Origin: an uncultured candidatus Porisulfidus sp.
GTDB taxonomy: Bacteria > Pseudomonadota > Gammaproteobacteria > Poriferisulfidales > Oxydemutatoraceae
Length of the DNA stretch: 64,000 nucleotides
Assembly (NCBI GenBank): GCA_965200865.1
Contig: CBDAVG010000002.1
Coordinates: forward strand, 2,130,712-2,194,711
Direction of reading: 5' to 3'
The notes beneath the pieces are model-generated. The model was given only the letters and a program-made list of their open reading frames with translations. It was not told the DNA's origin and did not search any database. Positions 17,489 through 20,274 of this stretch are shown in pieces. Numbering within the stretch: position 1 is the stretch's first letter; each line of letters starts with the position of its first letter. Made by a program: the position numbers and the translations under genes.

Positions 17489-17682
17489 AACAGTGCCGCT
17501 CCTGCTTGAACTAGCTGTCTACAGACCTCTAAACTCAAGTTTGTGCAGAAGGAAAAGACATATTGAACTGCCAATTGACCTGCTAGCCGATTGGTAGTTC
17601 TATTCTGCTCCTACAACTCTATGGAATCCTTTTTCAACAGCTCCACATTACTGCTTTACGCTTACAGCTGTCAAATTTTAGA

Positions 17683-17710
17683 TTGACAAGGTGATTGCAG
17701 TTTCTATAAT
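17683..17710 (+). promoter_or_regulatory. consensus sigma70 promoter (TTGACA-16bp-TATAAT), copy 1
   Basis: 'ttgacaaggtgattgcagtttctataat'; duplicated at 19683-19710. Confidence 0.6.
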
Positions 17711-17755
17711 AAGCGTCCAAAAGGGCATACTGAGAATAACGAATAGGAGTTAACA

Positions 17756-17845
17756 ATGAGACAGATCGCTTTAGATGCCGAGTCCAGCGGGCATAATTTC
17801 CATTCCAAAATAAATCCCCAGCGCAAAGTAGACAAGCAAGATTAG
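17756..17845 (+). pseudogene. decayed 5' fragment of dnaQ-like exonuclease gene (duplicate of 19756..)
   Basis: Translates 'MRQIALDAESSGHNFHSKINPQRKVDKQD*' vs intact 'MRQIALDTETTGFGPSKHRIVEIGCVEIVDRTITGRNFHSKINPQCEV...'; upstream 75 bp ~90% identical to 19680-19755. Confidence 0.75.
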
Positions 17846-17869
17846 TAAATATATTGAAGGAGAAAAAAT

Positions 17870-19630
17870 ATGCGAAATATAACGATACAAGAGGCAATAA
17901 AAAATATCAGTGCGAGGGAGTATCTTCTTCCTGCCATTCAAAGAGAGTTTGTTTGGAACACATATCAAATTGAGCGTTTGTTTGACTCCCTTATGCGAGA
18001 TTATCCAATTGGTACATTTCTGTTTTGGCGCGTAGAAGGTGAAGAAATCGGCGAATTTCAGTTCTATGAATTCTTCCGTTATTATCATCAAAAAGATAAG
18101 AGACATAATGAGAAAGCCGATGTTAAAGGTAAACCTAGTGTTACCGCTATCCTTGACGGTCAACAACGCCTTACTGCACTTTATTTAGGTTTGCACGGGT
18201 GGCATGCTACCAAGTTAAAACATAAACGATGGGATGACCATAATGCTTATCCTCCGAAAAAACTTTATTTAAATTTACTTGCTCCTCCCTCACCAGACAG
18301 TGAATGTGAATATGACTTTAAATTTTTAACAGACAAAGAATCGGAAGAAAGAAACGACAAAGTCTTTTGGTTTCCCGTTGGGAAAGTGTTGGACTTTCAT
18401 AAATCTAACGATTCTTATAAATACCTGCAAGAGAATCAACTAACTGAAATCTCAACAGAGCAGGCAGACTTTGCGAGCGAGACTCTCACTAAACTTAGAG
18501 AAGTTATTCATAAGGACACATTGATAAACTACTTTCTTGAAGAGAATGAACTCCTAGACAAAGTTTTGGATATCTTCATCCGTATAAACAGCGGTGGAAC
18601 GAAATTAAGTTATTCTGATTTGTTGCTTTCTATTGCAACGGCACAGTGGGAAGAAAAGGATGCACGGGAAGTTATTACAAAATTTGTTGATGATCTAAAC
18701 AATATAGGTAACGGTTTTTCTTTTAATAAGGATTTTGTATTGAAGGCTTGCCTTGTCCTGAGCGACTTTCCCAGTATTAAGTTTAAGGTACACAATTTCA
18801 ATAAGAAAAACATGCGCCAAATTGAATCTGACTGGGATAGCATATCAAAGGCTATTGAAGAAGCCGTGGGTCTTGTGTCTAACTTCGGGTTCAATAGAGA
18901 TACTTTGCCTTCTATGAACGCTGTTATTCCCATTGCGTATTATCTGCTGAAGGCACACCCTAATAGTTTTTGTGAATCGTTAAGCCATAAGGAGGAACGA
19001 AACAAGATTTTTAATTGGTTGATTAGAGTTTTGTTGAAGCAAACCTTTGGCGGACAGTCTGACAGCATTCTAAGCAGAATACAGTCAATCATAGGAGACA
19101 ACTATAAAACAGGCTTCCCGCTACATCAGATTGCACGCTCCCTAAGAGTAGAGCCAACAAAGTCCATTATATTTGCACCAAATGAAATAGAAGATCTTCC
19201 CAATCGGCCTAATAATAGATATGCATTCCCTTCATTGGCTGTTGTTTATCCAACACTAGACTTCAGAAATAAGTTTCACAAAGACCATATTTTCCCAAGA
19301 AAATTATTTAGCCGAGAAAAACTGCTTGCGCAGGGCGTATCAGAAGACAAGGTTCAATTTTGTCTAGAAAATTACAATACCTTAGCCAATCTCCAACTTC
19401 TTCCTGGAACAGAGAATCAAGAAAAATCTGCGAAACTTCCTAAAGTATGGATGGACGCTACTATGAATGAACAGGAACAAGAGTCTTACAGGAAGATGCA
19501 CTTCATACCGAGAGATATCCTCTTATCGTTAGATAACTTTAAGGAGTTTATTGAAAAAAGAAGAGAATTGTTGGTTGAGGAGTTCTCAAAATATCTTAAA
19601 ATGTCGGATGACGGTGTTGCTTATAAATAG
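17870..19630 (+). CDS. GmrSD-family type IV restriction endonuclease (DUF262 ParB-like NTPase + DUF1524 His-Me finger nuclease)
   Basis: 586 aa; 'LLPAIQREFVWNTYQIERLFDSL' and 'ILDGQQRLTALYLG' (DUF262 DGQQR); C-terminal 'FHKDHIFPRKLF' (DUF1524); markedly AT-rich relative to neighbours. Confidence 0.8.
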   Translation: MRNITIQEAIKNISAREYLLPAIQREFVWNTYQIERLFDSLMRDYPIGTFLFWRVEGEEIGEFQFYEFFRYYHQKDKRHNEKADVKGKPSVTAILDGQQRLTALYLGLHGWHATKLKHKRWDDHNAYPPKKLYLNLLAPPSPDSECEYDFKFLTDKESEERNDKVFWFPVGKVLDFHKSNDSYKYLQENQLTEISTEQADFASETLTKLREVIHKDTLINYFLEENELLDKVLDIFIRINSGGTKLSYSDLLLSIATAQWEEKDAREVITKFVDDLNNIGNGFSFNKDFVLKACLVLSDFPSIKFKVHNFNKKNMRQIESDWDSISKAIEEAVGLVSNFGFNRDTLPSMNAVIPIAYYLLKAHPNSFCESLSHKEERNKIFNWLIRVLLKQTFGGQSDSILSRIQSIIGDNYKTGFPLHQIARSLRVEPTKSIIFAPNEIEDLPNRPNNRYAFPSLAVVYPTLDFRNKFHKDHIFPRKLFSREKLLAQGVSEDKVQFCLENYNTLANLQLLPGTENQEKSAKLPKVWMDATMNEQEQESYRKMHFIPRDILLSLDNFKEFIEKRRELLVEEFSKYLKMSDDGVAYK

Positions 19631-19682
19631 TAGCTATGTTCCTTTCCCCTAGTTTGTAATATGTTATAGCATCATACATAGA

Positions 19683-19710
19683 TTGACAGAGTGATTGCAA
19701 TTTCTATAAT
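19683..19710 (+). promoter_or_regulatory. consensus sigma70 promoter (TTGACA-16bp-TATAAT), copy 2, upstream of dnaQ-like gene
   Basis: 'ttgacagagtgattgcaatttctataat'. Confidence 0.6.
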
Positions 19711-19755
19711 GAGCGTCCATGAGGGCATACTGAGAATAATGAATAGGAGTTGACA

Positions 19756-20274
19756 ATGAGACAGATTGCATTAGACACCGAAACTACCGGATTTGGACCA
19801 AGCAAGCATCGGATTGTAGAAATTGGTTGTGTTGAAATCGTAGACCGCACTATCACCGGACGTAATTTTCATTCCAAGATAAATCCTCAATGCGAAGTGC
19901 ACGAAGGTGCCACGGCAACCCATGGTTATACATGGGAGATGCTTAAAGATAGTCCGTTGTTCGCTGATATTTGCGATGAATTTATATCCTTTGTACAAGG
20001 TGCACAAATTTTGATACAAAATGTGCCGTTTGATTTGCCATTTTTAGACAGCGAACTGCAACGTTTGGGATGCGGAAATTTTACTGCAGAAGCCCAATGT
20101 ACTGTTGTTGATACGTTGAGAATGGCTGAAAAACGTCACCCTAGAGGTGAAAACTCACTAAATGCATTGTGCAACCATTATGGAATTGATAACAGCCACC
20201 GCAAGTTCCACGGTGCGTTGAAAGATGCGAAGTTATTAGCGCAGGTTTATTTGGCAATGACGAGCGACCAGTAA
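19756..20274 (+). CDS. stand-alone DnaQ/epsilon-like DEDDh 3'-5' exonuclease
   Basis: Exo I 'ALDTETTGF', Exo II 'NVPFDLPFL', Exo III 'HGALKDAKLLAQVY'; ~173 aa. Confidence 0.8.
   Translation: MRQIALDTETTGFGPSKHRIVEIGCVEIVDRTITGRNFHSKINPQCEVHEGATATHGYTWEMLKDSPLFADICDEFISFVQGAQILIQNVPFDLPFLDSELQRLGCGNFTAEAQCTVVDTLRMAEKRHPRGENSLNALCNHYGIDNSHRKFHGALKDAKLLAQVYLAMTSDQ

What the first reader, a model, noticed from the sequence alone, without database searches (positions are those of the whole stretch)
17680..19860. GmrSD-type restriction gene sits as a low-GC cassette inside a dnaQ-like exonuclease gene, bracketed by a duplicated consensus promoter + 5' gene end
The segment 17683-17845 (TTGACA-16-TATAAT promoter, AGGAG RBS, ATG at 17756 and a decayed 30-codon reading frame) is ~90% identical to 19683-19860, which is the promoter and start of the intact DEDDh exonuclease gene, ATG 19756. 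That is exactly 2000 bp downstream. Between the copies lies only the AT-rich GmrSD (DUF262/DUF1524) gene, which has its own RBS. The upstream copy has lost the codons for 'FGPSKHRIVEIGCVEIVDRTITGR' and gained a stop, so it is a remnant. This looks like a cassette acquisition event that re-used or duplicated a strong promoter. The mechanism is unclear; candidates are homologous-recombination-mediated allele replacement or a defence-gene hotspot adjacent to the exonuclease gene.
Basis: seen in the sequence. Interest (0 to 1): 0.65.

Follow-up and report, generated by a model that had tools for sequence, protein, structure and literature searches.

The report
Relic exonuclease promoter driving GmrSD gene
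A restriction-type phage-defence gene sits behind the leftover promoter and first codons of a dead copy of a small exonuclease gene that recurs through a variable defence island of a sulfur-oxidising bacterium, so this is an old inherited scar of gene turnover and not a fresh insertion into a housekeeping dnaQ gene.

Summary
The duplication is real. Positions 17680-17838 repeat 19680-19907 at about 83% identity, with a 69-bp in-frame deletion. Each copy carries one of the only two perfect TTGACA-16-TATAAT promoters in the 64 kb.

The "dnaQ-like" gene is not the housekeeping dnaQ. It equals only the exonuclease domain of Pol III epsilon. The same genome encodes a separate full-length dnaQ.

In eight related loci this short exonuclease gene occurs in one to four copies or relics inside a variable island of nuclease-type defence genes (Uzume, Mrr, GmrSD, McrBC). 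In most of these loci the island lies next to pyrB.

The relic-GmrSD-exonuclease block, with the identical deletion and junction, is also found in two other genomes. The event is therefore old and inherited. A fourth genome has an independent truncation of the same paralogue, followed by different cargo.

All four relics keep perfect promoter hexamers while the rest of the relic decays (0/12 vs 52/101 variable sites, p=3.5e-4).

Best reading: a promoterless BrxU-type GmrSD gene replaced the 3' part of one exonuclease copy, and the retained promoter now drives it. The intact downstream copy is a recombinant mosaic (p=2e-4).

Verdict: new variant of a known kind, moderate interest.

The parts
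15142..16137 (-). pyrB (aspartate carbamoyltransferase), the conserved left flank of the variable island
   Evidence: Pfam OTCace_N 5e-42 and OTCace 2e-24. The same flank occurs in L083-L085 and L166-L168.
16460..17488 (+). 342-aa island gene of unknown function, with MITE-like pieces on both sides (16172-16236 and about 17579-17648)
   Evidence: No Pfam hit and a weak PADLOC PDC-S02 hit. The orthologue is inverted in L085 (78% nt identity) and in the same orientation in L168 (82%). The MITE end is at 17629-17645.
17683..17710 (+). Upstream consensus sigma-70 promoter (TTGACA, 16-nt spacer, TATAAT) retained from the dead exonuclease copy; inferred to be the promoter of GmrSD
   Evidence: 12/12 match and one of only two in the window. 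The hexamers are invariant in all four relics while 52 of 101 other columns vary. No other strong promoter or terminator lies before 17870.
17680..17845 (+). Relic of an exonuclease paralogue: promoter, 5' UTR, RBS AGGAG 17745-17749, ATG 17756, a 29-codon ORF with a 69-bp internal deletion after about 17791, stop at 17843-17845
   Evidence: Alignments A1-A3; tblastn of the exonuclease protein hits 17756-17830. It is 80-82% identical to the orthologous relics in L081 and L168.
17870..19630 (+). BrxU-like GmrSD-family type IV restriction enzyme (586 aa) with its own RBS (17858-17862) and no promoter of its own
   Evidence: Pfam GmrSD_N 1.2e-32; PADLOC HEC-05 3e-224; full-length match to PDB 7P9K (BrxU) at 7e-135. 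RLFDS, DGQQR and DHIFP motifs are present. Lowest GC in the window.
19663..19755 (+). Start of the next exonuclease unit: about 20 nt of unit-specific flank, second consensus promoter 19683-19710, 5' UTR, RBS 19745-19749
   Evidence: Homology to the L168/L167 'a' copies starts at 19663. The promoter is a 12/12 match. The spacer 19625-19690 has no terminator-like structure.
19756..20274 (+). Intact 172-aa DEDDh exonuclease, equivalent to the epsilon-186 domain of DnaQ and lacking the clamp motif and C-terminal tail; a mosaic of alleles
   Evidence: Pfam RNase_T 3e-31; NCBIfam PRK05711 239.8 bits over profile positions 1-173 of 234; PDB 1j53 4e-44; alignment with the genome's own DnaQ, P0376; maximum chi-square breakpoint near 20011-20019, p=2e-4.
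20312..20463 (+). MITE inserted 38 nt after the exonuclease stop codon, at the place where relatives carry a convergent Uzume (UzuA) gene
   Evidence: Terminal inverted repeats at 20312 and 20447-20463. Homology to L083/L085 stops at 20311. No UzuA remnant is left in the window.
20644..22300 (+). IS element (DUF772 plus DDE_Tnp_1_6 transposase, 20711-22276), parent of the MITE family
   Evidence: Pfam; inverted repeats at 20644-20672 and 22282-22298.

Best explanation
The segment 17680-17845 is the relic of a once-intact second copy of a small, island-resident exonuclease gene. That gene is an epsilon-186-like paralogue of dnaQ carrying a perfect sigma-70 promoter.

In this clade of sulfur-oxidising gammaproteobacteria, copies of the gene alternate with nuclease-type defence genes in a variable island. 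In most loci examined the island lies next to pyrB.

In an ancestor shared with the L081 and L168 lineages, a promoterless BrxU-type GmrSD gene with its own RBS replaced the 3' part of one exonuclease copy by illegitimate recombination. A 69-bp slippage deletion between ACCGGA repeats also occurred. Selection has since kept only the relic's promoter, which now transcribes GmrSD. With no terminator in between, transcription probably reads on into the next unit.

The intact exonuclease gene at 19756 is simply the next array unit with its own promoter. It has since been reshuffled by recombination or gene conversion with other copies.

Shown: the repeat, its homologues, the shared deletion and junction, hexamer conservation, the mosaicism, and the separate dnaQ. 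Inferred: promoter activity, read-through, and the order of events.
For: 1. The same relic, the same 69-bp deletion and the same 3' junction (AAGTAGACAAGCAAGATTAG/TAAATATATTG) are upstream of orthologous GmrSD genes in L081 and L168.
2. L167 carries an independent truncation of the same paralogue. That relic is 324 nt, also lies downstream of an Mrr_cat gene, and is followed by different cargo (182-aa and 158-aa genes) and then an intact exonuclease gene.
3. All four relics keep 12/12 promoter hexamers. Variable columns are 0 of 12 in the hexamers against 52 of 101 elsewhere (Fisher p=3.5e-4). The relic ORF and RBS decay: there is a frameshift in L168 and a stop at codon 3 in L167.
4. The relic diverges faster than GmrSD between genomes (80-82% vs 91-93% identity).
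5. There are only two 12/12 promoters in 64 kb. No 12/12 promoter and no terminator lie between 17710 and 19683.
6. The exonuclease gene is multi-copy in relatives. It is under purifying selection (median dN/dS 0.20, DEDDh residues kept).
7. It is distinct from the genome's full-length dnaQ, P0376, which sits on the same 2,491,028-bp contig.
8. The window's copy is mosaic. Upstream of the -35 it follows the GmrSD-linked alleles; from 19758 on it follows 'a'-type alleles (98% vs 75% identity). A second breakpoint lies near 20015 (35:12 vs 13:44 informative sites, p=2e-4).
9. Relative to L168 the window lacks a 4.8-kb stretch. The right breakpoint falls 13 nt upstream of the -35, which leaves the promoter intact.
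Against: - There are no transcription data, so promoter use is inferred from consensus and conservation only. The spacer is 16 nt, not the optimal 17.
- The hexamer test rests on four sequences, three of which descend from one event.
- The closest relative by core genes (L083, 94% in pyrB) lacks the block, while the more distant L168 (91%) has it. Loss in L083 and lateral exchange by homologous recombination therefore cannot be told apart.
- The contig of L081 starts inside the Mrr gene, so its left context is unknown.
- Nothing shows how the GmrSD gene first arrived.
Confidence: 0.7

Rival explanations
1. Homology-driven cassette transfer. The block [relic-GmrSD-exonuclease] reached this genome from another strain by homologous recombination, with the repeated exonuclease sequences (and pyrB) serving as arms. 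On this view the repeats are the vehicle of spread and not just a scar.
For: - The exonuclease copies clearly recombine.
- The exonuclease allele linked to GmrSD differs between the window ('a' type) and L168, L081 and L169 ('b' type). The switch lies in the conserved promoter and first codons.
- The closest core-gene relative, L083, lacks the block.
- Breakpoints between L085 and L166 fall in repeated linker modules.
Against: - GmrSD divergence between the window and L168 (7.3%) is close to that of pyrB (8.6%), as expected for vertical descent.
- No near-identical donor in a different core background was seen.
- This explains spread, not the origin of the relic.
Confidence: 0.3
2. Site-specific integrative cassette. 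A mobile element targets the 5' end of the exonuclease gene and carries its own promoter plus 5' end to restore the gene, as dusA- or icd-targeting islands do. The displaced original 5' end is left upstream.
For: The topology (displaced 5' end, cargo, restored gene) is what such elements produce (established knowledge). The cargo is compact and compositionally foreign.
Against: - No integrase or recombinase gene is in or next to the block, in the window or in any related locus.
- The two independent relics end at different positions, about +80 and about +250 from the start codon.
- Intact tandem exonuclease copies exist without relics.
- Repeat homology starts at or before the promoter in every copy, not at a short att core.
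- The relic is a different paralogue from the downstream copy (signature AAACGCCC vs GAGCGTCC).
Confidence: 0.05
3. Functional pairing. The short exonuclease is an accessory partner of the neighbouring nuclease effectors (Uzume, Mrr, GmrSD, McrBC), for example degrading cleaved phage DNA. Each defence gene travels with its own exonuclease gene. On this view the relic is only a dead partner copy and its promoter conservation is incidental.
For: - By my count from the gene tables, 16 of 18 intact exonuclease copies in nine loci have a nuclease-type defence gene as an immediate neighbour.
- A UzuA homologue lies next to, or within a few short ORFs of, an exonuclease copy in L081-L085, L166-L168 and L170. 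This holds across different island flanks and down to 62-64% exonuclease identity.
- The gene is under purifying selection with catalytic residues intact.
Against: - UzuA homologues on three plasmids from other taxa have no exonuclease neighbour.
- The loci are not independent samples.
- The window itself has lost UzuA.
- Pairing does not explain why decayed relics keep perfect hexamers.
- This reading is compatible with the best explanation and is not exclusive of it.
Confidence: 0.2
4. Assembly artefact or chance similarity. The suspiciously exact 2000-bp spacing might suggest a mis-join.
For: Only the round number itself.
Against: The same architecture occurs in three independent assemblies, with spacings of 2000, 2024 and 2039 bp and 7-20% sequence divergence. 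Chance expectation is zero.
Confidence: 0.01

Closest known systems
BrxU / GmrSD-family type IV restriction enzymes (PDB 7P9K; PMC8565348)
   Same: The cargo gene aligns over its full length with BrxU (E=7e-135, residues 5-571). It has the RLFDS and DGQQR motifs of DUF262 and a DHIFP version of the DHIYP HNH motif.
   Different: Here the gene stands alone behind a borrowed promoter, not inside a BREX operon. Its activity and substrate are untested.
DNA polymerase III epsilon subunit (DnaQ), specifically the epsilon-186 exonuclease domain (PDB 1j53)
   Same: The DEDDh fold and motifs match. The protein is 60-65% identical to the clade's own DnaQ and scores 239.8 bits against NCBIfam PRK05711.
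   Different: It stops exactly before the QTSISF clamp-binding motif and lacks the alpha-binding tail. It is multi-copy and confined to the defence islands seen here. The genome has a separate full-length dnaQ.
Chromosomal core defence hotspots (e.g. cDHS1/2 of Pseudomonas aeruginosa, PMC10250203)
   Same: Defence gene content varies between conserved core flanks. No single mobile element type accounts for it. Transposons sit at the edges, and homologous recombination is proposed as the means of transfer.
   Different: This island is punctuated internally by repeated copies of one gene with a consensus promoter, and by a second small-ORF linker family. Breakpoints fall in these repeats.
Integron cassette arrays (Pc promoter plus promoterless cassettes)
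   Same: A compact promoterless gene with its own RBS is expressed from an upstream resident promoter, within an array-like alternation of conserved and variable segments.
   Different: There is no intI, attI or attC. The 3' end of the GmrSD segment has no attC-like structure. The repeated units are whole genes.
Islands that integrate into a gene's 5' end and supply a replacement 5' end (dusA-specific integrases; icd/e14-type)
   Same: The topology is the same: a displaced gene end, then cargo, then a complete gene.
   Different: There is no integrase and no common att core. The independent relics have different end points, and the relic and the intact copy are different paralogues.
Uzume (UzuA) single-gene defence system (PADLOC PDLC03973)
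   Same: Relatives carry UzuA homologues (E 1e-45 to 1e-49, GIY-YIG C-terminus) next to, or within a few short ORFs of, the exonuclease gene.
   Different: The window has no UzuA. Uzume is described as a single-gene system, and three plasmid homologues lack an exonuclease neighbour.

Membership tests
GmrSD/BrxU type IV restriction enzyme | N-terminal DUF262 domain with RLFDS and DGQQR nucleotide-binding/hydrolysis motifs | tested here: met
   Pfam GmrSD_N 114 bits against a cut-off of 33.2. ERLFDS and LDGQQR are present in the translation. The motif definition is from PMC8565348.
GmrSD/BrxU type IV restriction enzyme | C-terminal DUF1524 HNH nuclease domain with the DHIYP motif | tested here: met
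   Pfam GmrSD_C scores only 18.3 bits, below the cut-off of 23. However, the alignment to BrxU 7P9K runs through residue 571 and pairs DHIFP with DHIYP. PADLOC HEC-05 scores 744 bits over the full length.
GmrSD/BrxU type IV restriction enzyme | Cleaves modified (e.g. glucosyl-hmC) DNA and protects against phage | not testable with these tools
   Needs biochemistry or phage assays.
DNA polymerase III epsilon subunit (DnaQ) | DEDDh 3'-5' exonuclease domain (Exo I DxE, Exo II NxxxFD, Exo III HxxxxD) | tested here: met
   DTETTG, QNVPFD and HGALKDA are present. Pfam RNase_T 3e-31. PDB 1j53 4e-44.
DNA polymerase III epsilon subunit (DnaQ) | Beta-clamp-binding motif and C-terminal alpha(PHP)-binding segment | tested here: not met
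   The protein ends at the Q that precedes QTSISF in the genome's own DnaQ. Only profile positions 1-173 of 234 are matched. TIGR01406 scores 218.1, below its cut-off of 222.7.
DNA polymerase III epsilon subunit (DnaQ) | Single housekeeping copy of the genome | tested here: not met
   A 226-aa DnaQ (P0376) is on a contig of 2,491,028 bp, the same length as the contig carrying the window's exonuclease (P0001) and GmrSD (P0121). Relatives have 2-4 copies or relics of the short form per locus.
Integrative island restoring a targeted gene's 5' end (dusA/icd type) | Linked tyrosine or serine recombinase | tested here: not met
   No recombinase domain was found in the window island ORFs tested or in the gene tables of nine related loci. 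Only IS transposases are present.
Integrative island restoring a targeted gene's 5' end (dusA/icd type) | Same att crossover point in independent insertions | tested here: not met
   Relics end at about +80 (window, L081, L168) and about +250 (L167) from the start codon.
Integron | intI integrase, attI, and an attC hairpin at the cassette 3' end | tested here: not met
   There is no integrase. The segment 19625-19690 folds at only -4.4 kcal/mol (z = +1.3). No inverted repeats bracket the cassette.
Core chromosomal defence hotspot | Variable set of defence genes between conserved core genes across related genomes | tested here: met
   The pyrC'-pyrB flank is constant. The content is Uzume, Mrr, GmrSD, PD-(D/E)XK-like and NYN genes in different combinations in L083-L085 and L166-L168. 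The right flank (Trx/sox) is shared by the window, L083-L085 and L166.
Uzume defence system | UzuA gene present | tested here: not met
   tblastn of two UzuA homologues against the window finds nothing. A MITE and an IS occupy its place.

The most novel reading that the evidence does not exclude
The truncated-epsilon exonuclease unit (consensus promoter plus a 172-aa DEDDh gene) is a dedicated building block of a clade-specific defence island, in one of two ways.

(a) It is a shared accessory nuclease that finishes off DNA cut by the neighbouring Uzume, Mrr, GmrSD or McrBC effectors.

(b) It is a recombinase-free scaffold. Its repeated copies supply portable strong promoters and homology arms for gain, loss and exchange of defence cassettes. 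That would be functionally analogous to an integron but run by homologous recombination.
Probability: 0.3. Interest if true: 0.7.

Novelty: new variant of a known kind. Interest (0 to 1): 0.45.

Why it matters
How chromosomal defence islands are assembled, regulated and exchanged without obvious mobile elements is an open question; it is posed explicitly for the Pseudomonas core hotspots (PMC10250203).

This locus gives a concrete natural example with visible scars:
- a repeated gene with a perfect promoter punctuates the island;
- dead copies are kept only as promoters for newly arrived defence genes;
- live copies are mosaics, which shows ongoing recombination among the repeats.

It also flags a free epsilon-like exonuclease, separate from the replisome's dnaQ, as a candidate defence-associated gene that current defence catalogues do not list as part of Uzume or GmrSD systems.

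For annotation, it warns that 'DNA polymerase III subunit epsilon' calls in such islands are not the housekeeping gene.

Tried and rejected
- Exact look-ups of the window's exonuclease and GmrSD proteins returned no contig, so the source record could not be read beyond the window.
- Scans of genome contigs, metagenome contigs and viral contigs with the exonuclease found only ordinary dnaQ genes at 55% identity or less. All close relatives came from ENA long-read assemblies through the protein search.
- I first assumed a SUP05/Thioglobus symbiont from the sox neighbours. The SoxB search does not support that. The best named relative is a 'Chromatiales bacterium' MAG at 84% identity, followed by Beggiatoa, Thiomargarita and Thiolapillus at 64-69%.
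- I first read L081 as showing the block in a second chromosomal context. Its contig starts inside the Mrr gene, so only its right flank (recA) differs. Mobility of the block as a unit is not shown.
- The idea that a MITE truncated a full-length dnaQ is rejected. The 170-173-aa form is conserved in many genomes, and no DnaQ C-terminal coding remnant is in the window.
- No Rfam family and no stable structure were found in the 5' UTR, relic or spacers.
- No LexA-like operator is evident by eye in the conserved UTR. This was not tested formally.
- Literature searches found no description of this arrangement.
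Full report
**Observation**

- Positions 17680-17791 match 19680-19791 at 95 of 112 positions. After a gap, 17792-17838 match 19861-19907 at 36 of 46. Identity is therefore about 83%, not about 90%.
- It is far beyond chance. The 28-nt promoter segment occurs nowhere else in the window (0.00 expected). 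The pattern TTGACA-N16-18-TATAAT occurs only at 17683 and 19683 in 64 kb (0.05 expected).
- The upstream copy lacks 69 bp (23 codons) that lie between two ACCGGA repeats in the intact copy. The deletion is in frame, and the relic ORF (17756-17845, 29 codons) is still open.
- Between the copies lies only a 586-aa gene with its own RBS.
- The exact 2000-bp spacing is a coincidence. The orthologous spacings are 2024 and 2039 bp in two other genomes.

**The genes**

- The cargo is a BrxU-like GmrSD type IV restriction enzyme.
  - It hits Pfam GmrSD_N at 1e-32 and PADLOC HEC-05 at 3e-224.
  - It aligns over its full length with PDB 7P9K at 7e-135, with RLFDS, DGQQR and DHIFP motifs. The motif definitions and the PDB identity come from PMC8565348.
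  - It has the lowest GC of 53 ORFs in the window (37.5% vs a median of 45.8%).
  - Outside this clade its nearest relatives are only about 55-61% identical and are scattered over phyla.
- The 172-aa 'dnaQ-like' protein is the exonuclease domain of epsilon and nothing more.
  - It matches NCBIfam PRK05711 over profile positions 1-173 of 234, and PDB epsilon-186 at 4e-44.
  - It ends exactly at the glutamine that precedes the QTSISF clamp motif in the clade's real DnaQ.
- The real DnaQ exists in the same genome. P0376 (226 aa) is on a contig of 2,491,028 bp, the same length as the contig carrying the window's exonuclease and GmrSD proteins. The L085 and L170 genomes likewise carry both forms.

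**Relatives**

Close relatives of the short exonuclease (62-84% identity, 168-173 aa) come only from recent ENA assemblies. I read nine of their loci.

The organism is an uncultured sulfur-oxidising gammaproteobacterium. Its SoxB is 84% identical to that of a 'Chromatiales bacterium' MAG.

In L083-L085 and L166-L168 the exonuclease gene lies in the same slot as in the window, next to pyrB. The window, L083-L085 and L166 also share the thioredoxin/sox right flank; L167 differs there and the L168 contig ends first. The content between the flanks differs from genome to genome:

| Locus | Gene order |
|---|---|
| L085 | exo, UzuA, 77-aa ORF, 348-aa gene, 95-aa ORF |
| L083 | exo, UzuA, exo, PD-(D/E)XK-like, NYN |
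| L166 | exo, UzuA, 69-aa ORF, exo, Mrr, 91-aa ORF, 349-aa gene, 80-aa ORF |
| L167 | GmrSD-like, 78-aa and 548-aa genes, exo, Mrr, relic, 182-aa and 158-aa genes, exo, UzuA, exo pseudogene, 342-aa gene |
| L168 | 352-aa, 433-aa and 105-aa genes, exo, 177-aa gene, Mrr, relic, GmrSD, exo, UzuA |
| L081 | Mrr, relic, GmrSD, exo, 345-aa gene, UzuA, exo, 345-aa gene, PDC-S01 |
| L082 (other flanks) | exo, UzuA, exo |
| L170 (other flanks) | McrBC, PDC-S18, HSDR_N_2-domain gene, exo, split UzuA twice, exo, UzuA, Mrr |

Family assignments come from PADLOC and Pfam; copy and relic positions come from blastn. The slot is therefore a defence hotspot, and the short exonuclease gene is a repeated component of it.

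**Age and origin of the relic**

- Window 17670-20306 aligns with L168 7892-10554 (88.4% identity) and with L081 1275-3905 (86.9%).
- Their relics have the same 69-bp deletion and the same 3' junction. One ancestral event therefore produced all three.
- Between the window and L168, GmrSD is 92.7% identical and pyrB 91.4%, as expected for co-inheritance. The relic is only 82% identical, as expected for non-coding decay.
- The window differs from L168 by loss of a 4.8-kb stretch (exo, 177-aa gene, Mrr and two more genes), replaced by about 90 nt of MITE sequence. The right breakpoint lies 13 nt upstream of the -35.
- L167 has a longer relic of the same paralogue. It shares the upstream flank and the AAACGCCC signature, and again lies downstream of Mrr. 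It has no 69-bp deletion, has a stop at codon 3, and is followed by different cargo. Truncation of this exonuclease copy by incoming plus-strand genes has therefore happened at least twice.

**What the relic does**

- All four relics keep a 12/12 promoter. Their RBS and ORF decay: there is a frameshift in L168 and an early stop in L167.
- Variable alignment columns number 0 of 12 in the hexamers against 52 of 101 elsewhere (Fisher p=3.5e-4).
- Of 17 copies in the subclade, 14 have the perfect promoter.
- No other strong promoter, no terminator and no stable RNA structure lies between 17710 and the GmrSD start, or between the GmrSD stop and 19683.

I infer that the relic survives because it is the GmrSD promoter, and that transcripts can read on into the next exonuclease gene. 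This has not been shown experimentally.

**The intact copy**

- The exonuclease copies are under purifying selection (median dN/dS 0.20) with catalytic residues kept.
- The window's copy is a mosaic.
  - Upstream of the -35 it follows the GmrSD-linked alleles of L168b, L081a and L169.
  - From 19758 on it follows the 'a' alleles of L167 and L168 (98% vs 75% identity in the first 40 nt).
  - A further breakpoint near 20011-20019 separates an L083a-like half from an L167a-like half (35:12 vs 13:44 informative sites; maximum chi-square p=2e-4).
- Differences between L085 and L166 likewise begin and end in a second repeated module, a small plus-strand ORF of 69-95 aa.

The repeats are therefore active recombination substrates.

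**Mechanism and rivals**

- Best explanation (confidence 0.7): a promoterless GmrSD gene replaced the 3' part of one exonuclease array unit long ago, and the promoter was retained by selection. The downstream gene is the next unit.
- Complementary rival (0.3): the block spreads between strains by homologous recombination through the repeats. The closest core-gene relative (L083) lacks the block, which fits either loss or exchange.
- Site-specific integration that restores the target's 5' end (0.05): disfavoured. There is no recombinase in any locus, the two relic types have different end points, tandem intact copies occur without relics, and the relic and the intact copy are different paralogues.
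- Functional pairing of the exonuclease with nuclease effectors (0.2, not exclusive):
  - For: every relative examined carries UzuA next to, or within a few short ORFs of, an exonuclease copy.
  - Against: three UzuA homologues on plasmids of other taxa have no such neighbour, and the window has lost UzuA to a MITE/IS event.
- Artefact: excluded by three independent assemblies.

**Comparison and novelty**

- The cargo is an ordinary member of the GmrSD/BrxU family.
- The locus behaves like a chromosomal core defence hotspot (PMC10250203).
- Expression of a promoterless cassette from a resident promoter resembles an integron in effect, but none of the integron's defining parts is present.
- In my limited literature searches I found no description of three things:
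  - a truncated dnaQ paralogue with a consensus promoter that recurs inside a defence island;
  - relics of that paralogue serving as promoters for other defence genes;
  - live copies that recombine with each other.

I rate this as a new variant of a known kind, with moderate interest.

**Caveats**

- The related loci are few and phylogenetically close.
- All functional statements rest on sequence evidence only.
- Only 64 kb of the genome was visible.

Noticed in passing
window, 23 sites (e.g. 1009, 2809, 8265, 17629, 20312, 20447, 35745-36239, 55746-56169, 63000-63251): A MITE family with terminal repeat TGGGACTGTTGAAAAAG is very abundant: 23 hits in 64 kb against 0.03 expected. A full 152-nt copy is at 20312-20463. 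The parent IS (DUF772 plus DDE_Tnp_1_6 transposase) is at about 20644-22300, and a second copy is at about 1009-2825.
   Followed up: partly
window 21140-21493: A 177-nt tandem duplication (79% identity) lies inside the IS transposase gene 20711-22276. The other IS copy encodes a longer transposase (576 aa vs 521 aa).
   Followed up: no
window 16460-17488 (flanks 16172-16236 and about 17579-17648): A 342-aa island gene has no Pfam hit and only a weak PADLOC PDC-S02 hit. It lies between MITE-like pieces. Its orthologue is inverted and sits on the other side of the exonuclease gene in L085, but has the same orientation in L168.
   Followed up: partly
window 22632-22841, partial copy 24767-24918; L085 11749-12112 and 13427-13835; L166 9413-9800, 11675-12128, 13461-13878: A small coiled-coil/transmembrane ORF (69-95 aa, no family hit) forms a second repeated plus-strand 'linker' module in the island. 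Structural differences between L085 and L166 begin and end in these modules.
   Followed up: partly
window 24030-24686 (-): A dCTP-deaminase-like gene (Pfam DCD 5e-21) has low GC (40.5%) and lies inside the variable region. It has no PADLOC hit. It may be a nucleotide-depletion defence gene.
   Followed up: partly
window 22460-22546: A 29-codon remnant of the NYN-domain gene that is intact in L083 (76% aa identity). This is further evidence of erosion of the island in this genome.
   Followed up: partly
window about 23100-23600: Transposase-like coding debris. By eye it looks IS1595/ISXO2-like. It has no long ORF, was not checked against any family library, and lies between the small ORF and the dCTP-deaminase-like gene.
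   Followed up: no
window 25076-25310: Several imperfect copies of a GC-rich unit of roughly 61-88 nt (GGCGCGGAGCGGTTGGGGTTGTGCAGGCGCAACGCGTTAG...). The unit is also repeated in L083 14953-15295.
   Followed up: no
window 5893-8217 (-) and 8481-11519 (-): Two subtilase/proprotein-convertase proteins, one of them with leucine-rich repeats. This is a eukaryote-like architecture that suggests a host-associated lifestyle. A similar 963-aa gene is in L082.
   Followed up: partly
window 44159-45859 and 46766-48466: Two paralogous 566-aa MFS transporter genes lie 0.9 kb apart.
   Followed up: no
L169 1-3568: Two GmrSD genes lie in tandem upstream of one exonuclease gene. The first is a frameshifted orthologue of the window's gene (92% nt identity). 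The second is a 603-aa paralogue (61% aa identity).
   Followed up: partly
L170 10559-12487: Two tandem UzuA genes, each split into N- and C-terminal ORFs (203+108 aa and 191+108 aa), lie between two identical-promoter exonuclease copies. They are either pseudogenes or a two-part Uzume variant.
   Followed up: no
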